From contig NC_006908.1 of assembly GCF_000008365.1 (NCBI RefSeq), forward strand, positions 210,001-242,000: a DNA stretch of 32,000 nt. Reading direction: 5' to 3'. Of the stretch, positions 1,279-20,014 are shown one piece after another. The translations under genes and the position numbers were made by a program. Within the stretch, counting starts at the first letter, position 1. Each line of letters starts with the position of its first letter. The notes beneath the pieces were generated by a model. It ran no database searches. It was given only the letters and a program-made list of their open reading frames with translations, and was not told the origin of the DNA. The stretch is from Mycoplasma mobile 163K. GTDB lineage: Bacteria > Bacillota_I > Bacilli_A > Mycoplasmatales > Metamycoplasmataceae.

Positions 1279-2214
1279 ATGAACAAATGAACAAATAAAA
1301 AGATTTCTTTTATCTCTGTATTAATAGCAACTTCAGTTGCATTTACAATAATTGGTGCAGGTGCTTTAGCAATAACTTCTTTACCCAATATTAAGTTATC
1401 TTTTGCGGGTTTACCAGTAAAAATTACTGGATATTTATTTGGGCCTTTAATAGGTTTTATTACAGGATTTCTAGCTGATTTATTGTCTTTTTTGTTCATT
1501 CCTTCTTTTTACAATCCATTATATTCTTTTGGATTAGCTTTAACAGGAGCAATTCCTGGGATTGTCGCCTGATTTTATTTTAAATTTGGAAAAAATTTGT
1601 TTAGTAAGGAAACAAAAATCCAAAGATACACGAATAAAATTATTTTTTACAAAAACTTCATATGATTTAATGAAAATAAAGAAGAAATTAAAACAATTGA
1701 AAAATACAATTTTTTAATTAATAAATATGAGAAAAAAATCATTTTGCTACAAAAGGCTGAATATTCAAATTCTATTTTAAATTTCAATTGAATAAGTTCT
1801 TTCATAATTATTTCCATTTTATTAATTGCAATAGTAACATTAATAACAAATTTACCAGATAGGTTTTTTGACTCTCCAATTTTTTTTAGAACTAGACCAT
1901 CTTTTTATTTATTTTCAATTTTAGGTTTAGCAATAATGATAGTTTTTATTAGTTATATGAGATTTAACTCCAAGCCAAAAACCTTTTTGAATATTGTTCC
2001 CATCATAATTTTTTCAGCATTAATTGAATTTTCAACAATAGCGGTAATAGCTTATGCAGATTCTATAACTCTGGGAATTGATTTTCAAATTTCATTAATT
2101 GGAACTTTGCTTTTATCCCCAATAAAAATATGAGGAAATTTAATTATTATTTTGATCACATATAATATTATTGCTCCATTAATTAAAAATAAACAAAGTA
2201 ATGGATGAGTATAG
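1279..2214 (+). CDS. polytopic membrane protein, ECF-transporter S-component-like, with a ~70-aa hydrophilic insertion (311 aa)
   Basis: A single frame runs from ATG 1279 to TAG 2212-2214 when in-frame TGA is read as Trp. The track shows only the 1936-2133 fragment. The N-terminal region ISFISVLIATSVAFTIIGAGALAI...GLPVKITGYLFGPLIGFITGFLADLLSFLF resembles the glycine-rich TM1-3 pattern of ECF S components. About 7 hydrophobic segments. Family assignment is by eye only. Confidence 0.45.
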
Positions 2215-2239
2215 TAAAATTACTTTTAATGAGGAAACT

Positions 2240-4753
2240 ATGGAAAAAAAATGAAATCTTAGCATAGAAAATTTAATTAGCAAAGAATTAGATTTAGAAA
2301 CAAAAATGCCTTACTTTGATAATTTAAATATTGATATTATTCAAGGTGAAATTGTGACTCTTTTTGATAAAAGAGATTTTGAATCTCGGAATATTATTAG
2401 TAATATTCTTAAAAATAAGTCTAAAAATTCAACTCATTCATTTTATTTAAATCAAACTATTAATGATGAAATAAAAGATGGAAACAAAGAGTATTTTTTA
2501 TCGAATTTTAATATTGATACTTTTGAAGATGATTCCTTAATTGGGATTCATAAAATTTTTGAAAATAATAACAATTTCTTTTTTTATGATTTATTTAAAA
2601 AACATTTAAAAGAAAATGAAAACATAAAAAATATTACAGATTTTTTCCAGGATATTTACCCAATTTACTATAAAGAATCATTTTTAAAACTAGAATCATT
2701 TTTGCTGTCTGAAAAATTAGATTTGCAAGAAACCTATTTTCAAAACTTAGAAAATTTTGTTCAAAAAAATAAAAAATTATTAAATTCATTTAAAGAAATT
2801 GATTTTGAAAATAAAAATAATAGAATTAGTTTCAAAAATTCTTATTTAAATTTTTTAGATGATTATTTAAATTTAAAAATTTCTAATTTGGAAAAAATAA
2901 GTTTACAAAAGAAAAACATTTTTAATTATATTTTTGAAAAAATTAATGAATTTAAGACAAAAGAATTTCAACTTGCAAGCAAAAAAATAAAAAAAGATGA
3001 ACTTCAAAAACAAATTGAATCACTAAAAGAAAGCAAAAGAGTTTTAGAGTCTAAAGAAAAAATTTCCGAGCTTTTAGAAAGTTTAAACAAGAAAAAGAGC
3101 AATTCAATTTTAAATAGAAAAAAAACTTCTAAAATTATTTGAAATTTCATTAAAAATTTCAAAAATAGCTATAAAATTTATAAAAAAGTTTCTTTTATGC
3201 AAGATAACAAGGAAATTAAATTTCATTTTTACAAACTTGCACTATTGAATAAAAAAACTTTTCAAAAATTTAAAAAAATGGGTTCTAGATCAGACTTATC
3301 TTGGTTATCTCAAAAAGATATAGTTGCTTTATCAAGAGATATAAGGGAATACAATAAAACTCTATGAGACCAATTAATTAATTCAACTAATTCTAACATG
3401 TCAAATAAAAATGTAAAAAAACACATTGATTACGAGTATTTGTTTTTATTCAAACCTTATGAAGCTATTTATTCATTGAATAAAAAAAATTTTAAAATTG
3501 AAGTAGAATCTATCAACAAACAAATTAACGAATATAAATTAATTTTGAAATCAAAGAAAAATATTCAACCTGAAATTAATGAAAAAAAACTTTATGATGC
3601 AACGCAAACACTAGAAACTTTTGTAGTGAATGAAAAATGGGAACAAGAAATTGAGTTTAAAAAATTAGCAGATAAAAACGAAATTTTAAACAAAGAAATT
3701 TCATTTGTTTTTAATAATATAAATGTTTTAAGTTTTCAAGAAAAAGATTTATTAAAATCTTTTAATGAACTTTATAATGAAATTTTTGAAGTAAATTTTA
3801 AAAATAATGATGAAAAAACATTAATGCAAATCATAAAAATTCACGAACAATTTGAAGATGCTGATAATGCATATAAAATGATGCAGCTTGATTTTGAAGA
3901 AATTATAAATCTTTCCTTTTCTAGGGATTTCAATTTCAAAGGAAATGCACTAGAAGAAGTTGTGAAAAAAGATTTTATTTATCAAGCACTATTAAAATTA
4001 GAAATTCCATATTATTTTTCTTATTTTAAAAAATTAAATCTTTGAAAATCTGAAAAATTAAATATTATAAATTTAATAATTTCACTTTTAATAAGTAAAA
4101 AATCTAAATTTATATTTGTTCAAGATAGATTTTTTTCTGAAACTCTTATGAAAGATAAGACTTTTATTTTGAATTTAAGAAAATTTGTAAAAAAAGAAAA
4201 CATAGGATTTTTTTTTAGGACATATTCAACACAAAATCTGGACCTGATTGCTGATAAAATTTTTGTCTCTTATTATGGAAAAATAATTGAAAAAGGAAAG
4301 ACTTTGGAAGTAATAAAAACTCCTATTCATCCCCAAACAAAACTTCTTTTGGAAAATGGCAATTTAAAAATAAATGATGAATCAATTAATTATTTGATTG
4401 ATTTAGTTCCAGGAGATATTTTGAAAATGTACAATGTTGAATCTACTAATCATTCTATACTTGCAAATGTTCATTATTTTACTAAATGGACAAATAAATT
4501 TCCTGATTCAAAAACTAAAACATTTTCATTTGTAAATTCACCAATTTTAAGTGAAAGAGAAATTGAAAAAATAAATACCAAATTTGAGTTGGAAGAAACA
4601 AAAATCATTGATATTTCGTATTTGACTAAATTAAATAGCCTTAAAAAATCTAATAAAAATTTATTTTTAACTAAAACTATTGATTTTCAAACAAATAGAA
4701 ATATAGATTTATTAACAAAAACATTTGCTACCAAAAAAGAAGAGAGAGTTTAA
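2240..4753 (+). CDS. OppF/OppD-type ABC nucleotide-binding-domain homolog with degenerate Walker A, signature, Walker B and H-loop and a roughly 450-aa insertion (837 aa)
   Basis: Track fragments 2306-3142, 3398-4045 and 4148-4753 are all in the same frame and are joined by TGA codons. ATG at 2240. The N-terminus WNLSIENL...FDNLNIDIIQGEIVTLFDKRDFESRNIISNIL aligns to the ABC pattern L.v.nL...l.nvsf.i..GE.lgLvGeSGsGKSTl. The C-terminus LWKSEKLNIINLIISLLISKKSKFIFVQDRFFSETL...IGFFFRTYSTQNLDLIADKIFVSYYGKIIEKGKTLEVIKTPIHPQTKLLLEN aligns to LSGGQ...LLIADEPTSALD...ISHDL...ADRv.VMY.GkIVE.G....i...P.HPYT..LL. Confidence 0.6.
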
Positions 4754-8563: not shown

Positions 8564-10006
8564 ATGGAAAAAAATGCAAGTTTTTCGCAAGAGAAAATAT
8601 CTAGAATAAATTTATCAGAGAAAGTATCAAGCAATTTATCAATATTATTAAAAGTTTTTTCATATATTTTTTATGGAATATTTTTTGCAATTATTATCTC
8701 TTTACAATTTATATCTAACCCAAGTCAAATTGGATCTCCTAATTTGATAATGATTAGCACAATTGTGATGTTTTTATTTATTTTTGTTGCTTTAATAAGT
8801 GTATTTTTTATAAACTTTATTGCTGATTCATATAGAAAAATATGAAAAATAAAATTTTTATCTTTACACATTTTAAATTCTATTTTTTTAGTAATTGCTG
8901 CTATAGTTATGACTTTGTTTAAAATTAGTTCTATCGAAATAATGGCTACTAATTCTAATTTGAATTCATGAATTTTAACATCATCTATTATTATTTTAGT
9001 TCATACTTTAGCAATTACTATAATGCTTACAATTGTGGGGCTACAAACAAGAAAAAGTTTTTCAATCACTTGAATGAAAACTTTATTATCTTTACCAATT
9101 TTCTTATTAGAAATTGTTATAGGATTCTTGCTTTTTGTAGCTTCTTTTAATTTTTTAGAAGGAGCTTCTAGTTTAGCTTTTACAATGCTTTTTATTGCCT
9201 TAGCTGTTTTTATATTCAATTTTATATATGGGATTTTAATTGTTCTTTTTGTTGCTGCTTTTAAAACTCAACTTTTCGGTCAAAAAACAAATAGGGAATT
9301 AGCAAAAATTGAATTAAATAGAGAATATGCATATTTTTCAATGTTTGCAATTAGTATTGTTTTAATGTCAATAGCAATTGTGTTTCAAGTAAATTTATCA
9401 CTTAATGCAATTGGATTTATTGTTAACTTAATTATATTATTGATTTCTCTTTCAACTTATTTGTTTATTATGATCAAAAGAAATATGTCAAAAGCAAATT
9501 TGATTAAGTCAAATGATATTGAATTAAAAAATGCAATTACAAGTAATTTCTTTTCTTGAATTTTTGTATTATCAACAACAATTTTTATATTTTTTGCAAA
9601 TTTCTTATCTGAAAATTCTTCTACAGCCATTATCATTACTTTTGCAAGTTTTTGATTAGTTAAAATAATATTAAATATTGTAATTGGATTTAAATTTCCA
9701 AATATTAAAAACACTATTACTACTTTTATAATTGGAATTGTGATGCTTTTTGTTGTATTATTTGCATTGATTTTATTGACAATACCCGGTTCATCAGCAT
9801 TTAAAATTTTCTTAAGAGATGCATCGATGCTTATAATAATATCAACAATTTTTATAGGATTATCAATAAATTTTGTTCTAACAATACTAACCACTCAAAA
9901 AGCTTATGCTCAAGGTGAAATTAGTAAAAAATTCAAATTGAAAAAAGCAGAAAATATAATAAAACAAGAAGAATTACTAGAAAAAATCACATCTAAAATA
10001 AGCTAG
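8564..10006 (+). CDS. F1-like ATPase cluster gene 1: ~12-TM integral membrane protein (480 aa), candidate X0 membrane sector
   Basis: Track fragments 8564-8845, 9074-9559 and 9740-10006 share one frame and are joined by TGA codons. About 12 hydrophobic segments, e.g. YIFYGIFFAIIISLQFI, IMISTIVMFLFIFVALISVFFINFI, LSLPIFLLEIVIGFLLFVASF, FIIGIVMLFVVLFALILLTI. C-terminal charged tail KKFKLKKAENIIKQEELLEKITSKIS. The stop is 19 nt before gene 2. Confidence 0.8.
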
Positions 10007-10025: not shown

Positions 10026-10907
10026 ATGAAAAAAACAGATAAAAATCAAACAGGAAAAGAAATAATGAAAAAAGAATTACTTATTAAAACAAATGAGCAA
10101 GATATTAACTTAGCTCCTAAATCTCAATCAACATCTAAAAAACTTTCGAATACTTGAAATTATGAAGAATTAATTAACCAAACAAAAGAAATTGATGTCA
10201 ATTCAAAAATAGTCAAAACTGAATTAGAATATGTTGAGGAAGATTCTCGTTTAAGAAAAGAGAAAATTGAATTAATTCAAAAAAATTATGACAATTTAAA
10301 TGCAAAACCTTTAGTTGGGGTTGATTTATATGAAAGTTACTCATTAGTTTTAAACAAATCTGCGTGAAATTACAACGAAATTATTCAAAGAGACACTCAA
10401 TTAACTATTTTAGATATGGCTTTACAAGTTCATCTATTTCTTTATGAAGGAAAAATAATTGATATTGCTCATATTCAAAAAATAATAAAAACATTTGTAT
10501 TAAATGTTTTTGCAAAAATTATTAAAGGGGTCCCAATTGTTTTAAACCCGATTATCATCTTTGATTCAGTTCGTTTTGATAAATCAAAAATTCTTCCTGT
10601 TGCTGTTGCAAATCCAAAATTAATGCCACCATTGGGTGTTCAAGATTGAGACACAATTGTAGATGAAGATGAAGAAATTAAAAAAATTGTTTCAACATTT
10701 ATCAAATTACTTGAAAATGCTCTAACAGTTGGCCATGAAGTGGAATTTTTTCAAGACACTTTATTAGTAAGAAATGTTGATGGAATAACTTCTTTATATG
10801 TTTCTGAAAAAGCAGCTCAGGTTTTTAACAATAGTGTAATTGATCAAATTATGCCTGAAAAACCAAAATATGAGGCACTAGAAGATCCTTTTAGCAATAA
10901 GAAATAA
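10026..10907 (+). CDS. F1-like ATPase cluster gene 2: soluble orphan protein (293 aa), no recognisable domain
   Basis: ATG at 10026 after SD AAGGAG (10014-10019). Same frame as track fragment 10416-10649, joined across TGA. TAA at 10905-10907. Contains an internal repeat W-N-Y-x-E-[LI]-I-[NQ] (aa 44 and 114). Confidence 0.75.
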
Positions 10908-10931: not shown

Positions 10932-11942
10932 ATGAAAAGAAAAGATGTCGAAGAGAAAAAACAAAATCTCGATTTCTATCATAACTATATTGATATTTCA
11001 AAAATAAAAGTATTACAAAAGTTGAATGAAGAAATTGCAAGTTTAAATATGTTAAAACTTCAAAAGGGAGAAAGTCATTATTTATTGAATAGAATTATCA
11101 ATAAATGATTTCCTCATAACTCAAATATCTATCATGAATTGCATCATGAAAATGATAGGAAAGAATTATACATATTAATCGATCCTAAAAAATTAGATTT
11201 ATTCTCAGAAGCTCTTTTACGTAAATTAAGTCAAACAGTAAAAGAAAGAATTAGACCTGATAAAGATTTTGTAATAACTGTAGGAACAAATGTTGATAAC
11301 ATTGCTAGACAATTAAATTTAAATATTATTGATCATTATGATCTGGATTTATTTAATCAAATTGATGATTTTGCAAACAGAATTGGAGAACTTGTTGATG
11401 TTGGTTTAAATAATAAAATTTTCAACTATGTTTCTTTGTTGATTGCTCAATCTAGTACAAAAAATAATGGTGGCCTTGTTCAAGAAAGAATTGTTCCTTT
11501 TAATACAAAAAATATTAAAGTTTGAAATGAATCAAATCAAGATGAAAACGGAATGCCGATTGTTTCTGAAGAAAATGAAGTTGAAATAATGTCATATGCG
11601 AAAACATTGAGAAATATAAATTTTAAAAAGCACACATGATTACCAAATATCAATACTTTTTATGAGCAATTTGTTAAGTCAGTCTTCAAACAAGAACTTT
11701 TTGAGTTTAAATCCATTAGTGTTATTGAAGAATTAAAAATCGAATTACAACTTTTAGATGAAAAGAAAAAGCGTTTAGAAGAACAAAAGAAAGAACTTAT
11801 CCTTAAATGAAATAGAGCAAGAAAAGAAGAAGCTACTTTGCAATCAACACTTTTATTTAGTGCTTTTAAAGTTAAGAATCAAAAATCAACAAGAGATGAA
11901 ATTTTGAGATTATCAAAAGGAAAAAATAGGAATGGAGCATAG
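10932..11942 (+). CDS. F1-like ATPase cluster gene 3: ATP synthase gamma-subunit-like protein (336 aa)
   Basis: ATG at 10932 after SD AGGAG. Same frame as fragment 11139-11525, joined across TGA. The C-terminus ELILKWNRARKEEATLQSTLLFSAFKV mirrors the gamma C-terminal helix signature (L..YN[KR]ARQ..IT.E..EI..GA). The central block FVITVGTNVDNIARQLNLNII resembles the gamma Rossmann-like core. Confidence 0.6.
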
Positions 11943-11944
11943 TA

Positions 11945-12541
11945 ATGAATAATATCAGTATCCATACAACAAATCCAAGAGATTTAAAAAATATCTATGA
12001 TCACTTTAATTATAAAATTTCAAAGGCAACTATTTATTCAATAGATAATAAAACTCTTGTCTTAAATTCAAATACTTCTTTTAATAAAGATTTAATACAA
12101 ACTTTTGATGTTGCTTTGTTAACATTGGAAATTTCAATAAAAAGTGACTTTATTGGTCAAGTTTTTGAAGATCAAAAAACCATTAAAACTCATGTACTTG
12201 TAGAAAACTTAATGCTAATGATTAATAATAAAGAATTTTTATTTTTAGTAAATGGAAAATATGATGTAATTTCAGAAAATAAAATTGTTCAAATTTTGCA
12301 AGAAGTAAGTGCAAAAGAATTTTCAAAGGAAAGTGTTCTTGAAAAAATTGAAAATGAATTAACTTTAAGTTCAAATCTATCTGTAATAAGAGCATACAAT
12401 CAATTATCTGATTATTTCACAGCTGAAAAATATTCTTTCAATAATAATGTTTTTAAATTATTAGCTCATCAAGCGGAAGCATTGAAAATTGCAAAGAAAA
12501 TTTTACTTAAAAACTTATCAATAAATGAAATTTCTAGATAA
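11945..12541 (+). CDS. F1-like ATPase cluster gene 4: 198-aa soluble protein, possible epsilon-like subunit (assigned by position only)
   Basis: Intact ORF starting 2 nt after the gene 3 stop. The beta-rich N-terminal half (ISIHTTNP...KATIYSIDNKTLVLNS...THVLVENLMLMINNKEFLFLVNG) and helical C-terminal half fit an epsilon-type layout. No diagnostic motif seen. Confidence 0.4.
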   Translation: MNNISIHTTNPRDLKNIYDHFNYKISKATIYSIDNKTLVLNSNTSFNKDLIQTFDVALLTLEISIKSDFIGQVFEDQKTIKTHVLVENLMLMINNKEFLFLVNGKYDVISENKIVQILQEVSAKEFSKESVLEKIENELTLSSNLSVIRAYNQLSDYFTAEKYSFNNNVFKLLAHQAEALKIAKKILLKNLSINEISR

Positions 12542-12552
12542 AAGGGAGAAAA

Positions 12553-15500
12553 ATGAAAAAAAGAACAAAAAAAATTTTAATAGGATCGTCATCTGCGTTG
12601 TTAGTTGGACTAACAAGTACTTTTGTTATTTCTCAGCCAATTTTAGATTCATCTAAAGAAAATTTAAATTTAAACAAAGCTATTTCAGGCAATGTTAATG
12701 GGCCAGTAATTATTTCTAATGAAAGCACAATAAATGTTTTCCCTACAACTTATTTTTATTTGTCTAATTTTGATGCTAATTCTCCTGAAAGATTTACCCA
12801 ATGAAATAACACAAACCAAGCTTTAACAGAATTTAAAAAAAGAGCTGAAAACCAATCTTTAGCTACAAATTCAGTTGCTTCAGAAGCTTTAAATTCTTTG
12901 ATTGAAATTTATGAAAATCTTAGAGTAGTTGAATTTAATTTAAATCAAGCTGCTCGTTTAGATGGAATTAATTCACAATTATTTCAAGATTCTTTTAACC
13001 AAAAAAAAGATGAGGAAAAATTTTTAGGTGTTACTCCAATTGAAACAGTGAATTTGAATGTAACTAGTGCAAGATCTGTTTTTGAAACAAACGATCCTAA
13101 TGCAGAACTTCAAATTTTAATTAGAAGTTTGAATGGATTTACTATAAATTCAAATAGCACGCTTTCGCTTAGAGGAAATTTAAACCCAGATGCAAATTCA
13201 GTTCCTGCAACAACTCCTGAAATTGTTAATTTAGCAAATGGTGTTCCGACCACTCCTGATTTTGTTAATTTAGGAAATTCGACAACTTCAGGAGTTTCTA
13301 CAATTGTAGAAATTGCTGAAATTGATGAATTGACATTGTCTTCTAATAGAAATATTATTCTTGATTTTTCATATACAGGAATACAAAATGGTGCAAGTAC
13401 AAATAATTTTAATGATGCTGTTTCTTTACCAGAAACTACAAGAGGAAAATTAGTTTTAATTAATGAAAATGGAGAATTAGCAAATGCTACTTCTATTTCA
13501 AGTTATGCTTCAAATTTAAATGTTTTTGGTAGATGAATGCCTTCATCAACTAATTCTGTTTCTCTTGAAAATACACTAGCAAGACCACATTTTATGAATA
13601 ATTTTATTATTGAAAAAGTAAATTCCACTTATAAAATTTTTGTTAGTTTAAAACCAAAAGAACTTATTAGTAATGTTTCGGTTTCTCAAGGAAGTGCAAT
13701 TCTATCAAAATTTGGAATCTTAAATACTCAGATTTTAAGCACACAACCTTTAATCCAAAATAATGCAAATGCTATTTTTACAATTCCATTTTTTGAAAGT
13801 AATGCAACTACACAAACAATTCCAAATGCTCCAAGTTTAGGTCAAAATCAAAAATTAGATGTATATCTAGGAAATGGTGCAACTTTTACTTCACAAGGTA
13901 TTTTTATTAAAGGTCTTAATGATAATGTATTCACTAGATATGATGTTGTAGCACCCAATGCTGCAGGTGGCGGAAGAATTGCTCCTAATTTAGAAATTGT
14001 AACTTCACAAAATAATGTTTCATCTCCAACAATCACTCCAGGAAATATTCAAGTAAATCCTACAACCTTAGGTTTAGGAAGCGGAACAGAAGATTTGAAA
14101 GTCTTGGATATTAATGTTAGTACTTCAATTTTTTCTCAATTCAATTTTAGTTTACAGGAAATTACATTCAATAATAATCATATTGCTATAACTGATCAAG
14201 TCACTGATGCAGCAAATTCAAATAGTAGAAATTACAATCCTATTTATTCACTTGTTAGAGAAACAGAAGAAATTACAAATTCACTTATTTCAAAGAAAAT
14301 CTTTTTTAGAGCTCCTTTTGTAAATTCAAATAGTGTATTAGGAAACCCTGATCAAAGATTTCCTAGAAATTTAGTTTCTGCAACACAAATTGAAAATCAA
14401 AACCAAGCTTCTTTAGTTAATTTATCTCATATTTTAAATGGTTGAATTTCAGGTAATCCTATTGTAAATTTATCTTTTGATCAAGATCTTAAAGTGATAA
14501 CTTTTACTGAAGAATTAAATAGATTCACAAGAATTAGACTAGATCAAATATCAAGAGAAACAGGAATTAGTGGAAATAGAATTTATTCTTCTTTAAGAAA
14601 TACTTTTGAAAATTATGAAAATTTAAAAACTCAAATAATTTCAGGTTATAGAAAAATAGAAAATAATCCTTTTAATAGTGCTTTGGGATCAACAGCAATT
14701 ATTGATAATATTTTACAATTAGTTCCTGGTTCAGTTCGTGAAGATTCATTACAATTAATAGCTAGTGCAGATCCTGTATCCAATTCAAGCTCTTCAAGAT
14801 TAAATTATGACACAGTGACTTCAAATGAATTAAATAAATTAATCATAGAAGCTTATTCTACTTTACAAAATAGAGTAAAATCAGCAATTGATAGTGTTTA
14901 TGCAAGGGCAATTTCATCCTATTTAAATGGGGACATTGTGAACAATGATGAAAAGAGAATTCCTAATTTAAATTCAATGAGCTTATCTACTTCAACTCCA
15001 AATGGTGAAATTCCATTAATTAACATTAATAGAAATCAATCTGTTTTATCTGATTTACCAGGTGTAGTTAAAGGTAATCAAATATTTAAAGGAATCTTTG
15101 AATGATTATCATCAAATAATCTTGGAATTGGTTTATATTCTTCAACAACTCCAATAATTAATAGAACAGCAGAATCTTTTAGTTTGAGTCAAATTTTTGA
15201 AGAATTTAGAACAACAGATCCAAAACTATCAATTTTATCTGATTCAGCTTTTTTTGGAAATGATTTAACAGGAAATATTGAAGTAGAAAAAGCATTAAAT
15301 TTATACAAAATATTATTTAGATTCTTTGGAACAGATTTAAATACATATCAAGCAAATATATTACTTAATGGAAATCAAATTAATTTTTCAGATTTTGAAA
15401 ACCAAAATACAAATAACATTAGTGTTTCTCGAATAGTTAGAAATATGTATTCGAATTTAAACCTTCAAAATAAAACAATTAATTTTGATGTATTTGGAAT

Positions 15501-16029
15501 AAATATTAAAGTTAATTCATATAATGCATTAGTAAGTGCTGCAAATCTTAAATTTACCCTAGATAATATTAGATCTCTGAATTCAAACAATAGAGCTTTA
15601 TTAGAAGCTATAAATACTCAATTAAGAGAAAATTTATTAGATATTAATAATTTAGCTTCTTATTCAATTTTAATTGATGAAACAAATTTGGATAAATTTA
15701 CACAGGATTTTAGTAATGTTTCAACAAACCAAAGCATAAGATCAAGACTTGAGAATTCAGATATTATAAATAAACCATTATTTGTATCTAATTCATTACA
15801 AAGTAATTTTGGAACAAGTATAAATCAAAGTGCCCCAATTGTTGCATTAATATTATTTGCTTTGGTTGGATTTGCATTAATAAGCACTGCAGGTTATGTA
15901 TTAGTTGCAAGAAAAAAAACTATTACATTTAAAAATAGCAATAAAGGATTAAAATTAACCTTAAGTTCAATGATTATTTTAGGAATAATACTATTGTTAG
16001 TAATTGTACCTATTGCAATTATTTTGTAA
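12553..16029 (+). CDS. F1-like ATPase cluster gene 5: 1158-aa membrane-anchored surface protein (N-terminal signal anchor plus C-terminal TM hairpin; 3 TM)
   Basis: Five track fragments (12553, 12898, 13537, 14494, 15184) are all in one frame and are joined by TGA codons at 12802, 13534, 14443 and 15103. N-terminus MKKRTKKILIGSSSALLVGLTSTFVISQP has no lipobox Cys. The C-terminus APIVALILFALVGFALISTAGYVLVARKKTITFKNSNKGLKLTLSSMIILGIILLLVIVPIAIIL gives two TM helices around a basic loop. The ~1050-aa middle is N/S/T-rich. Confidence 0.85.
13201..13281 (+). repeat. imperfect tandem duplication inside the surface-protein gene (VPATTPEIVNLANG / VPTTPDFVNLGNS)
   Basis: GTTCCTGCAACAACTCCTGAAATTGTTAATTTAGCAAATGGT is followed directly by GTTCCGACCACTCCTGATTTTGTTAATTTAGGAAATTCG. 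Units are 42 and 39 nt, both in frame. Confidence 0.7.
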
Positions 16030-16053
16030 TAAAGGAATTTGAAAGGAAAAAAT

Positions 16054-19981
<3,928 letters not shown>

Positions 19982-19986
19982 TTTAT

Positions 19987-20014
19987 AAAAAGACCATTGG
20001 TCTTTTTATTTTTT
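19987..20014 (+). terminator. rho-independent terminator of the F1-like ATPase operon
   Basis: AAAAAGACC (19987-19995) pairs with GGTCTTTTT (19999-20007), with a 3-nt loop, followed by ATTTTTT. It starts 6 nt after the beta-like stop. Confidence 0.8.

What the first reader, a model, noticed from the sequence alone, without database searches (positions are those of the whole stretch)
12553..16029. 1158-aa surface protein encoded inside the ATPase operon: candidate output module
SEEN: the track splits this gene into five ORFs. It is one frame with four TGA-Trp codons. The topology signal is clear. There is a basic N-terminus plus one hydrophobic helix with no lipobox Cys. A ~1050-aa N/S/T-rich domain follows. 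The C-terminus has two TM helices around a basic loop (VARKKTITFKNSNKGLK), so the large domain is predicted to be extracellular and pinned at both ends. ESTABLISHED: F1-like clusters include a 3-TM protein of unknown function. INFERENCE: pinning at both ends, and placement between the stalk-like genes and the alpha/beta genes, suggests it is the element on which the motor acts (conformational work, secretion or surface remodelling). Being surface-exposed, it may also be antigenic.
Basis: partly seen in the sequence, partly recalled or inferred. Interest (0 to 1): 0.65.

Follow-up and report, generated by a model that had tools for sequence, protein, structure and literature searches.

The report
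Known gliding-motor membrane protein MMOB1650
The gene is real and reads as one 1158-codon frame, but it is MMOB1650 of Mycoplasma mobile, a described gliding-machinery membrane protein already proposed to link the internal motor to the surface legs, so the finding is correct but not new.

Summary
Window 12553-16029 (+) is one 1158-codon ORF under translation table 4, with four in-frame TGA (Trp) codons and a TAA stop. Two of those Trp are invariant in all five orthologues. The window appears to be Mycoplasma mobile 163K. The gene is MMOB1650, "Protein 5" of the Type 2 (gliding) F1-like ATPase operon described by Béven et al. 2012. Published work places it at the gliding machinery. Toyonaga et al. 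2025 propose that it and the 12-TM protein MMOB1610 form the membrane link between the gamma subunit and Gli521. New here: the outside-facing topology signals are conserved in all five detectable orthologues. These are a basic N-terminus, a basic acid-free hairpin loop, no tail after TM3, no cysteine, and a Lys-poor, N/S/T-rich large domain. It is the fastest-evolving gene of the operon (dN/dS 0.49 against 0.14-0.24 for the F1-like genes), yet its TM hairpin is conserved (0.19). The family is tiny. One genuine Type 2 cluster (L087) has no detectable homologue and carries three unrelated predicted surface proteins next to a relocated 12-TM gene. The fold stays unresolved (AlphaFold2 pLDDT 35-39). 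Function and topology remain unproven by experiment. Novelty: already known.

The parts
12553..16029 (+). MMOB1650 coding sequence: 1158 codons plus TAA, 127.2 kDa, gene 5 of the Type 2 F1-like ATPase operon
   Evidence: Single ORF under table 4. Exact self-hit on a 777,079-bp contig. The mass matches the ~127 kDa given for MMOB1650.
12543..12548 (+). Shine-Dalgarno-like AGGGAG, 4 nt upstream of the ATG and 1 nt after the gene 4 stop codon
   Evidence: Read directly from the sequence.
12553..12642 (+). N-terminal signal or anchor (residues 1-30): basic n-region MKKRTKK and hydrophobic core at 8-26. A possible cleavage site lies after VIS27.
   Evidence: Kyte-Doolittle score 1.91, with 5 K/R and 0 D/E before the core. 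The cleavage site is inferred from the -3/-1 rule only. This is the least conserved part of the protein: 43% identity and dN/dS 0.69 against L081.
12802..12804 (+). TGA encoding Trp84
   Evidence: Trp in L081 and Tyr in the tortoise-mycoplasma clade.
13534..13536 (+). TGA encoding Trp328, inside the invariant FGRW motif
   Evidence: Invariant Trp in all five orthologues.
14443..14445 (+). TGA encoding Trp631
   Evidence: Invariant Trp in all five orthologues.
15103..15105 (+). TGA encoding Trp851
   Evidence: Trp in L081 and Leu in the tortoise-mycoplasma clade.
12643..15822 (+). Large domain (residues 31-1090), predicted extracellular: 33% N+S+T, 3.2% Lys, no Cys. The tentative layout is helices at about 78-195, a strand-rich middle at about 220-570 and a helical C-terminal half at about 610-1070.
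   Evidence: Composition compared with cytoplasmic neighbours. The secondary structure comes only from low-confidence AlphaFold2 models. Conserved motifs are LNGF 193-195, NLN-FGRW 321-328, KIFF-x-x-P 582-588 and LQS 1082-1084.
13192..13280 (+). Imperfect 39-nt (13-residue) tandem duplication inside the large domain (ANSVPATTPEIVNL / ANGVPTTPDFVNL)
   Evidence: Tandem Repeats Finder: 2.2 copies, 76% matches.
15838..15894 (+). TM2 (residues 1096-1114), the first helix of the C-terminal hairpin
   Evidence: Kyte-Doolittle score 2.51. No K/R in the 15 residues before it in any of the five orthologues.
15895..15969 (+). Hairpin loop (residues 1115-1139, basic core ARKKTITFKNSNKGLK), predicted cytoplasmic. 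It is the only part of the mature protein that could face the motor.
   Evidence: 6 K/R and 0 D/E here, and 5-6 K/R with 0 D/E in every orthologue. K1131 is invariant. The hairpin is 82% identical to L081, with dN/dS 0.19.
15970..16026 (+). TM3 (residues 1140-1158). The protein ends with this helix, so the C-terminus is predicted to be outside.
   Evidence: Kyte-Doolittle score 3.43. No tail after TM3 in any of the five orthologues.
8564..10006 (+). Gene 1 (MMOB1610 by position): multi-pass membrane protein, 11 segments by my scale and 12 in the literature. It is the likely membrane partner of the target.
   Evidence: It evolves fast like gene 5 (56% identity, dN/dS 0.36 against L081). The Type 3 counterparts of genes 1 and 5 co-purify in detergent.
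10026..10907 (+). Gene 2 (MMOB1620, GliD by position)
   Evidence: Named.
10932..11942 (+). Gene 3, gamma-like subunit (MMOB1630 family)
   Evidence: NCBIfam NF045862, E = 4.4e-127, 423.7 bits against a cut-off of 250.
11945..12541 (+). Gene 4 (MMOB1640 family, epsilon-like)
   Evidence: NCBIfam NF045864, E = 2.2e-66.
16054..17640 (+). Gene 6, alpha-like subunit (MMOB1660 family). A TTG at 16039 is an alternative start.
   Evidence: NCBIfam NF045863, E = 7.4e-253.
17627..19981 (+). Gene 7, beta-like subunit with an N-terminal extension (MMOB1670 family)
   Evidence: NCBIfam NF045858, 1209.8 bits against a cut-off of 850.
19985..20009 (+). Terminator-like hairpin directly after gene 7, marking the end of the seven-gene unit
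   Evidence: 11-bp stem followed by a T-run. Gaps inside the cluster are 2-24 nt and genes 6 and 7 overlap.

Best explanation
The gene encodes MMOB1650, the conserved 'Protein 5' of the Type 2 (gliding) F1-like ATPase operon of Mycoplasma mobile. Shown: it is one ORF, co-directional and tightly packed with six motor genes. Inferred from sequence: it is exported through an N-terminal Sec-type signal, which is either cleaved or kept as an anchor. It then displays a large domain of about 1,060 residues (Lys-poor, N/S/T-rich, no cysteine) on the cell surface. A C-terminal TM-loop-TM hairpin holds it in the membrane, and the short basic loop of that hairpin is its only cytoplasmic part. Inferred by analogy and from published work: together with the 12-TM protein MMOB1610 it forms the membrane sector beneath which the twin-motor chains sit. 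It acts as a trans-membrane adaptor. The conserved hairpin sits on the motor and MMOB1610 side, and the fast-evolving outer domain sits on the side of the surface leg proteins (Gli521, Gli349, Gli123). In this way it couples, or at least aligns, the internal motor with the surface machinery. Whether it carries force or only docks the two halves is not known.
For: Identity and operon.

Topology signals conserved in all five orthologues:
- N-terminus with 4-6 K/R and 0 D/E.
- Hairpin loop with 5-6 K/R and 0 D/E.
- No K/R in the 15 residues before TM2.
- No residues after TM3.
- No cysteine.
- Large-domain Lys 3.2-5.3% against 9-10% in the cytoplasmic subunits of the same clusters.
- N+S+T 28-34% against 18-19%.
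By the positive-inside rule (established knowledge) the loop is inside and the large domain outside.

Evolution: against the close relative L081, the large domain has dN/dS 0.50 and the hairpin 0.19. The F1-like genes are at 0.14-0.24 and gene 1 at 0.36. Over the M. mobile to M. agassizii split, genes 5 and 1 are the most divergent, at 26.5% and 28% identity, against 53-58% for beta and alpha.

Literature:
- MMOB1650-EYFP co-localises with Gli349, and the N-terminal fusion gave only a weak signal.
- It is Triton-soluble together with Gli123, Gli349 and Gli521, and it elutes away from Gli123 along with Gli521.
- It is retained in ATP-reactivatable gliding heads.
- It is proposed as the membrane partner of gamma.
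- The Type 3 counterpart co-purifies with the 12-TM protein and, after cross-linking, with the F1-like subunits, MIB and MIP. AlphaFold3 puts it on the far side of the 12-TM protein from F1.
Against: - No experiment has tested the topology of MMOB1650.
- Trypsin shaving of the Type 3 counterpart MSC_0620 left residues 182-231 protected in intact cells, and was read as a cytoplasmic location. That protein has no detectable sequence similarity to MMOB1650. The section I read names no surface-exposed positive control for digestion.
- The C-terminal EYFP fusion fluoresced although the C-terminus is predicted to be outside.
- EYFP tagging gave no reported change in gliding or binding.
- The purified twin motor as described does not contain MMOB1650.
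- A genuine Type 2 cluster (L087) has no detectable homologue at the locus.
- The fold is unresolved, so no structural argument for a mechanical role exists.
Confidence: 0.55

Rival explanations
1. It is a surface scaffold or assembly factor. The topology is as above, but the protein transmits no force. It organises or positions the Gli surface proteins over the internal chains, much as Gli123 does for localisation, or it shields the machinery.
For: - EYFP tagging had no reported effect on gliding or binding.
- The large domain is the fastest-evolving part of the operon, which is unusual for a load-bearing mechanical element.
- L087 lacks the family and carries other surface proteins instead.
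- Tulum 2020 reports that surface components of the machinery are less conserved than internal ones.
Against: - Its fixed position inside the motor operon is kept in M. mobile, L081, L090 and M. agassizii.
- The cytoplasmic loop and hairpin are conserved (dN/dS 0.19), which suggests a constrained contact on the motor or MMOB1610 side.
- A C-terminal tag that is tolerated does not test function.
Confidence: 0.25
2. It is a cytoplasmic stator or peripheral-stalk analogue (the Béven 2012 model). The large domain lies in the cytoplasm, the hairpin anchors it to the membrane, and it holds the alpha3beta3 ring while gamma turns.
For: - Trypsin protection of the Type 3 counterpart in intact cells.
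- TMpred predicted a cytoplasmic orientation for that protein.
- The C-terminal EYFP fusion was fluorescent.
Against: - This orientation would place a loop with 5-6 K/R and no acidic residue outside, and ignore a basic N-terminal signal-like segment, in all five orthologues.
- Lys content is a third of that of every cytoplasmic protein in the window.
- The cryo-EM twin motor already has a stalk-like GliD dimer and lacks MMOB1650, and the alpha-like subunit lacks the helix that binds a peripheral stalk.
- AlphaFold3 places the Type 3 counterpart on the opposite side of the membrane protein from F1.
- There is no Pfam match to subunit b or delta.
Confidence: 0.12
3. It is a passenger surface antigen or adhesin that is merely co-transcribed with the motor genes and has no role in the ATPase complex.
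For: - Fast evolution.
- No family or structural match of any kind.
- No detectable homologue at one Type 2 locus.
Against: - It co-localises with Gli349 and is retained in gliding heads.
- A gene with the same architecture occupies the same position in Type 3 clusters across many mycoplasmas, and there it physically associates with the ATPase.
- The hairpin is under purifying selection.
Confidence: 0.08

Closest known systems
MMOB1650 of Mycoplasma mobile 163K (Type 2 F1-like ATPase cluster 'Protein 5'; UniProt Q6KIC5 as cited in PMC12994834)
   Same: The same protein by every available check. The only exact hit lies on a 777,079-bp contig. The mass of 127.2 kDa matches the published ~127 kDa. 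It is fifth of seven genes between the MMOB1640-family and MMOB1660-family genes, with pta and ackA downstream as published.
   Different: Nothing. The tools withhold names for window-encoded proteins, so the identification rests on size, cluster order, family matches of the neighbours and contig length. That 777,079 bp is the M. mobile 163K genome size is my own recollection.
Type 3 F1-like X0 ATPase 'Protein 5' (MSC_0620 / MMCAP2_0577), which works with the MIB-MIP antibody-cleavage system
   Same: Same position in a seven-gene cluster and the same architecture: an N-terminal signal-like segment, a large domain and two C-terminal TM helices. It has a 12-TM partner with which it co-purifies. 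Its proposed role is to relay ATPase work to surface proteins.
   Different: No detectable sequence similarity: the exhaustive HMMER search returned no Type 3 protein. It is about 85 kDa against 127 kDa, and its predicted structure is described as 'radically different'. It partners MIB and MIP rather than Gli proteins. The one topology experiment on it was read as cytoplasmic.
F-type ATP synthase subunit c
   Same: A hairpin of two TM helices with both ends outside and a short polar loop in the cytoplasm, which is where c subunits contact gamma and epsilon (established knowledge). The MMOB1650 hairpin has the same predicted topology.
   Different: No match to Pfam ATP-synt_C even at E <= 10. 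There is no acidic residue in either helix in any orthologue. It is fused to an ectodomain of about 1,060 residues. There is no evidence for a ring.
Gli123 (M. mobile surface protein needed to localise Gli349 and Gli521)
   Same: A surface-associated protein of over 1,100 residues at the gliding machinery. Both are Triton-soluble and extracted together.
   Different: It is encoded in the gli locus, not the ATPase operon. It is absent from M. agassizii and M. testudineum, whereas MMOB1650 orthologues are present.

Membership tests
Type 2 F1-like ATPase cluster 'Protein 5' (MMOB1650 family) | Encoded between the MMOB1640-family gene and the MMOB1660-family alpha-like gene of a Type 2 cluster | tested here: met
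   Genes 3, 4, 6 and 7 pass the NCBIfam cut-offs for the MMOB1630, 1640, 1660 and 1670 families, and the target lies between genes 4 and 6 with gaps of 11 and 9-24 nt.
Type 2 F1-like ATPase cluster 'Protein 5' (MMOB1650 family) | N-terminal signal-like hydrophobic segment plus two C-terminal TM helices joined by a short loop | tested here: met
   Segments at 8-26, 1096-1114 and 1140-1158, with the same layout in all five orthologues.
Type 2 F1-like ATPase cluster 'Protein 5' (MMOB1650 family) | Full-length sequence homology to the orthologues of other Type 2 species | tested here: met
   phmmer gave M. agassizii 1.7e-18, M. testudineum 2.2e-18 and L090 2.5e-24, each aligned over residues ~180-1155. 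The L081 orthologue is 58% identical. The split M. pulmonis orthologue reported by Tulum 2020 was not recovered.
Type 2 F1-like ATPase cluster 'Protein 5' (MMOB1650 family) | Localisation at the gliding machinery (cell neck) | not testable with these tools
   Reported for MMOB1650-EYFP by Tulum 2020.
Type 3 F1-like X0 ATPase 'Protein 5' (MSC_0620 / MMCAP2_0577 family) | Detectable sequence homology to MSC_0620 / MMCAP2_0577 | tested here: not met
   The exhaustive HMMER search of 1.84 billion representatives returned only Type 2 orthologues and one chance hit. Berlureau 2026 also calls the sequences highly divergent. No profile-profile test against Type 3 sequences was possible because none were in hand.
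Type 3 F1-like X0 ATPase 'Protein 5' (MSC_0620 / MMCAP2_0577 family) | Same cluster position and signal plus C-terminal two-TM architecture | tested here: met
   compared with the descriptions.
F-type ATP synthase subunit c | Match to Pfam ATP-synt_C (PF00137) | tested here: not met
   Four hairpins were scanned at E <= 10 and none matched.
F-type ATP synthase subunit c | Conserved ion-binding carboxylate within a TM helix | tested here: not met
   No D or E in TM2 or TM3 of any orthologue (sequences).
F-type ATP synthase subunit b (peripheral stalk) | Single N-terminal TM helix followed by a long cytoplasmic helical domain, and a match to the family profile | tested here: not met
   No Pfam or NCBIfam match. 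The charge bias places the large domain outside.
Bacterial lipoprotein | Lipobox with an invariant Cys after the signal peptide | tested here: not met
   No cysteine in any of the five orthologues.

The most novel reading that the evidence does not exclude
The F1-like hexamer, gamma/epsilon and the 12-TM protein form a conserved 'inside-out actuator'. Different mycoplasma lineages attach non-homologous surface proteins to it: the MMOB1650 family in gliding lineages, the MMCAP2_0577 family with MIB-MIP in Type 3 systems, and a set of an LRR lipoprotein and two N-terminally anchored proteins in the L087 lineage. On this reading, gene 5 is the exchangeable, fast-evolving output adaptor of a general machine that uses cytoplasmic ATP to move proteins on the outside of a wall-less cell.
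Probability: 0.3. Interest if true: 0.7.

Novelty: already known. Interest (0 to 1): 0.3.

Why it matters
How the force made by the internal F1-like twin motors of M. mobile crosses the membrane to the Gli521/Gli349 legs is the main open step in the gliding model. MMOB1650 and MMOB1610 are the only membrane proteins encoded in the motor operon, so they are the obvious candidates, and the field already says so. This analysis sharpens the experiment rather than making a discovery. The conserved cytoplasmic basic loop (residues 1119-1136, invariant K1131) and the hairpin are the parts under constraint and the place to mutate. The large domain evolves like an exposed surface protein. A natural Type 2 cluster without this family (L087) offers a comparative test of whether the adaptor is exchangeable.

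Tried and rejected
1. The search for related loci on genome contigs with the alpha-like subunit was wasted. The pattern YPGDIFYV is universal to F1 alpha subunits, so all 80 loci (L001-L080) were generic atpA from unrelated phyla.
2. The search for homologous proteins returned only the protein itself, both with the protein and with the family profile A1. Its word prefilter was saturated by 8000 low-complexity candidates and missed even the known orthologues.
3. A metagenome-contig scan with A1 gave 600 pattern matches, none confirmed.
4. AlphaFold2 on the full length with 5 sequences gave pLDDT 35.0 and pTM 0.26. A crop of residues 170-640 with 7 sequences gave pLDDT 38.9 and pTM 0.40. Neither model is usable.
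5. Foldseek against the PDB with the crop model gave a best E of 0.022 and TM-scores of 0.14-0.20 (a tailspike-like enzyme). I rejected this as noise from a poor model.
6. A PDB sequence search with the family profile gave no hits at E <= 1.
7. Pfam and NCBIfam found nothing for the target, and no Pfam family recurred among the five members at E <= 1.
8. The idea that the hairpin is a c-subunit relative was rejected: there is no ATP-synt_C match and no carboxylate.
9. The idea that L087's 1072-aa or 457-aa surface proteins are diverged gene 5 homologues was rejected: HMMER gave E > 1 and hhalign probability was 0.1% or less.
10. The idea of a conserved membrane carboxylate in gene 1 was rejected: the Glu of M. 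mobile is Gln in L081 and absent in M. agassizii.
11. P0009 (699 aa, E = 2.4e-4) was rejected as a chance hit, because it is a repeat protein of different composition matched over only about 120 residues.
Full report
**1. The observation**

Under the standard bacterial code, the frame at 12553-16029 (+) splits into five ORFs. The only in-frame stops are four TGA codons, at 12802, 13534, 14443 and 15103, and the terminator is TAA at 16027. The window has about 25% G+C. Its + strand genes use TGA 37 times against TGG 4 times. All four Trp of this protein are TGA-encoded. Two of them, W328 in the motif FGRW and W631, are invariant Trp in all five orthologues. The chance of 1158 codons free of TAA/TAG in this composition is about 2e-28, and an AGGGAG motif precedes the ATG.

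The described anatomy is also there:
- The N-terminus is MKKRTKK, followed by a hydrophobic core at residues 8-26.
- The protein contains no cysteine.
- The large domain is about 1,060 residues with 33% N+S+T.
- The C-terminal hairpin is TM 1096-1114, a loop with 6 K/R and no acidic residue, then TM 1140-1158. The protein ends with that helix.

**2. What it is**

The gene is fifth of seven co-directional genes. The gaps between them are 2-24 nt, genes 6 and 7 overlap, and a terminator-like hairpin lies at 19985-20009 just after gene 7. Genes 3, 4, 6 and 7 pass the NCBIfam cut-offs for the MMOB1630, MMOB1640, MMOB1660 and MMOB1670 gliding-motility families. This is therefore a Type 2 F1-like ATPase cluster in the sense of Béven et al. 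2012.

The only exact database match to the target lies on a 777,079-bp contig. The computed mass of 127.2 kDa equals the ~127 kDa reported for MMOB1650. The flanking genes valS, folD, pta and ackA fit the published layout. The window is evidently Mycoplasma mobile 163K and the gene is MMOB1650 itself.

**3. What is already published**

[quoted passage not shown] Topology predictions conflicted (TMHMM outside, TMpred inside). From trypsin protection of the Type 3 protein MSC_0620, the authors modelled it as mostly cytoplasmic and possibly a peripheral stalk.
- Tulum 2020 showed that MMOB1650-EYFP (a C-terminal fusion) co-localises with Gli349. A second, smaller band was seen, and the N-terminal fusion gave only a weak signal. 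No change in gliding or binding was reported for it. Orthologues were reported in M. agassizii and M. testudineum, and a split one in M. pulmonis.
- MMOB1650 is an abundant Triton-soluble band extracted with Gli123, Gli349 and Gli521. It is retained in ATP-reactivatable gliding heads.
- The cryo-EM twin motor as described does not contain it. Its authors propose MMOB1610 and MMOB1650 as the membrane partners of gamma that transmit rotation to Gli521.
- Berlureau 2026 describe MMOB1650 as a signal peptide plus two C-terminal TM segments. For the Type 3 counterpart, they show detergent-stable association with the 12-TM protein. After cross-linking, it co-purifies with the F1-like subunits and the surface proteins MIB and MIP.

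**4. What this analysis adds**

(a) The family is very small. An exhaustive HMMER search of 1.84 billion representatives found only five other proteins:
- a fragment of a close relative's orthologue;
- three full-length proteins at 24-26% identity, from M. agassizii, M. testudineum and one unnamed assembly;
- one chance hit.

No Pfam, NCBIfam or PDB relative exists.

(b) Gene 5 is seen at the same cluster position in M. agassizii (L089), the unnamed assembly (L090) and an uncultured close relative of M. mobile (L081). The M. testudineum homologue was recovered by sequence only. Its position comes from Tulum 2020.

(c) The topology signals are conserved in all five orthologues:
- 4-6 K/R and no acidic residue before TM1;
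- 5-6 K/R and no acidic residue in the hairpin loop;
- no K/R in the 15 residues before TM2;
- no residues after TM3;
- no cysteine;
- large-domain Lys 3.2-5.3% against 9-10% in the cytoplasmic subunits of the same clusters;
- N+S+T 28-34% against 18-19%.

By the positive-inside rule these place the loop in the cytoplasm and the large domain outside.

(d) Evolutionary rates between the window and L081:

| Gene or region | Amino-acid identity | dN/dS |
|---|---|---|
| Gene 5, whole | 58% | 0.49 |
| Gene 5, signal region | 43% | 0.69 |
| Gene 5, large domain | 57% | 0.50 |
| Gene 5, hairpin and loop | 82% | 0.19 |
| Gene 1 (12-TM) | 56% | 0.36 |
| Genes 2, 3, 4, 6, 7 | 65-84% | 0.14-0.24 |

Synonymous divergence is high (dS 0.7-1.2), so only the ranking is reliable. 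Over the deeper M. mobile to M. agassizii split, genes 5, 1 and 4 are the most divergent, at 26.5%, 28% and 29% identity, against 53-58% for beta and alpha. The pattern is that of an exposed, fast-evolving outer domain on a constrained membrane anchor. The two membrane proteins also diverge together.

(e) There is a variant cluster. L087, a metagenomic contig that uses TGA as Trp, passes all four NCBIfam gliding-type cut-offs. It runs straight from gene 4 to the alpha-like gene. Its 12-TM homologue sits downstream of beta (profile E = 3.8e-7). Between them lie three genes: a 164-aa single-TM protein, a 1072-aa lipoprotein with LRR_5 repeats, and a 457-aa N-terminally anchored protein. None of these is related to gene 5 by HMMER or hhalign.

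There are two caveats. The locus ends inside the 12-TM gene, so a gene 5 homologue further downstream cannot be excluded. Sensitivity is also limited, because the M. pulmonis orthologue was not detected either.

**5. Structure**

AlphaFold2 gave unusable models:

| Input | Sequences in alignment | Mean pLDDT | pTM |
|---|---|---|---|
| Full length | 5 | 35.0 | 0.26 |
| Residues 170-640 | 7 | 38.9 | 0.40 |

Foldseek on the crop model gave nothing significant. Only a tentative layout can be stated: helical N-terminal part, strand-rich middle and helical C-terminal half. Béven described the same order for the Type 3 protein, but this is weak evidence.

**6. Mechanism**

The best-supported reading (confidence 0.55) is a trans-membrane adaptor. 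A Sec-type signal exports the large domain. The hairpin anchors it, and the basic loop is the only motor-side surface. Together with MMOB1610 it forms the membrane sector that couples, or aligns, the twin-motor chains with the Gli surface proteins. The shown and inferred steps are marked in the structured fields.

The hairpin has the topology of an F-type c subunit, whose cytoplasmic loop contacts gamma and epsilon. It is not a family member, because it has no ATP-synt_C match and no carboxylate. Gene 1 also lacks a conserved membrane carboxylate, so ion translocation is unlikely.

The rivals are:
- a non-force-bearing surface scaffold (0.25);
- the cytoplasmic stator model (0.12), which conflicts with every conserved sequence signal but has the only wet-lab topology datum, obtained on a non-homologous protein;
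- a passenger surface antigen (0.08).

**7. Verdict**

The modest new points are the conserved topology signals, the rate contrast between ectodomain and hairpin, and the L087 variant.

Noticed in passing
L087:7713-20999 (ENA ERZ28618891, scaffold_48): A rearranged Type 2 cluster. Genes 2, 3 and 4 and the alpha- and beta-like genes are contiguous, and genes 3, 4, alpha and beta pass the NCBIfam gliding-family cut-offs. No gene 5 family member is detectable. The 12-TM gene is relocated downstream of beta, separated from it by a 164-aa single-TM protein, a 1072-aa LRR_5 lipoprotein and a 457-aa N-terminally anchored protein. The organism is unidentified, and the locus ends inside the 12-TM gene.
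   Followed up: partly
window 18113-18232 (beta-like gene 7, residues 163-202): The only four cysteines of the 784-residue beta-like subunit form CxxC-x18-CxxC (C168, C171, C190, C193) with flanking histidines, which looks like a zinc-binding knuckle. The motif is conserved in the close relative L081, but the beta subunits of M. agassizii and L087 have no cysteine at all. The 2025 cryo-EM paper does not mention zinc or cysteine, and it modelled only about 100 of the 299 extra N-terminal residues.
   Followed up: partly
L081:1-15925 (Logan SRR26596556; also L082-L086 from five other runs): An uncultured close relative of M. mobile with a fully syntenic valS-DUF2188-folD-Type 2 cluster-pta region. 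Amino-acid identity to the window is 56-84% per gene. A 57-residue DUF2188 gene lies between valS and folD, and I did not call a counterpart in the window.
   Followed up: partly
window 19985-20009: A strong terminator-like hairpin (11-bp stem plus T-run, readable on both strands) lies directly after the beta-like gene, 90 nt before pta. Tulum 2020 cites an operon prediction that pta and ackA are co-transcribed with the alpha and beta paralogues, so read-through or a separate promoter would need to be checked.
   Followed up: no
L089:17057-19200 (M. agassizii CP166874): In this M. agassizii genome, pta and ackA lie only about 1 kb downstream of the beta-like gene, after one reverse-strand ORF. 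Tulum 2020 states that they are distantly positioned in M. agassizii.
   Followed up: no
window 8564-10006 (gene 1, MMOB1610): The 12-TM protein has no conserved membrane-embedded carboxylate: the Glu in LLEIVIG is Gln in L081 and absent in M. agassizii. The conserved motifs fall in predicted loops instead (TNREL-x2-IE-x-N and K-x-PNIKN), which makes them candidate contact sites for the motor.
   Followed up: partly
window 1279-4753: An 850-residue, very Lys-rich (14.8%) protein with no Pfam match (2201-4753) overlaps by 14 nt the end of a six-TM protein with sub-threshold similarity to ECF transporter S components (1279-2214). This may be an unusual transporter-associated pair.
   Followed up: no
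window 13192-13280: An imperfect 13-residue tandem duplication lies inside the large domain of the target (ANSVPATTPEIVNL / ANGVPTTPDFVNL). L081 shows it too, and it is only loosely recognisable in the tortoise-mycoplasma orthologues.
   Followed up: no
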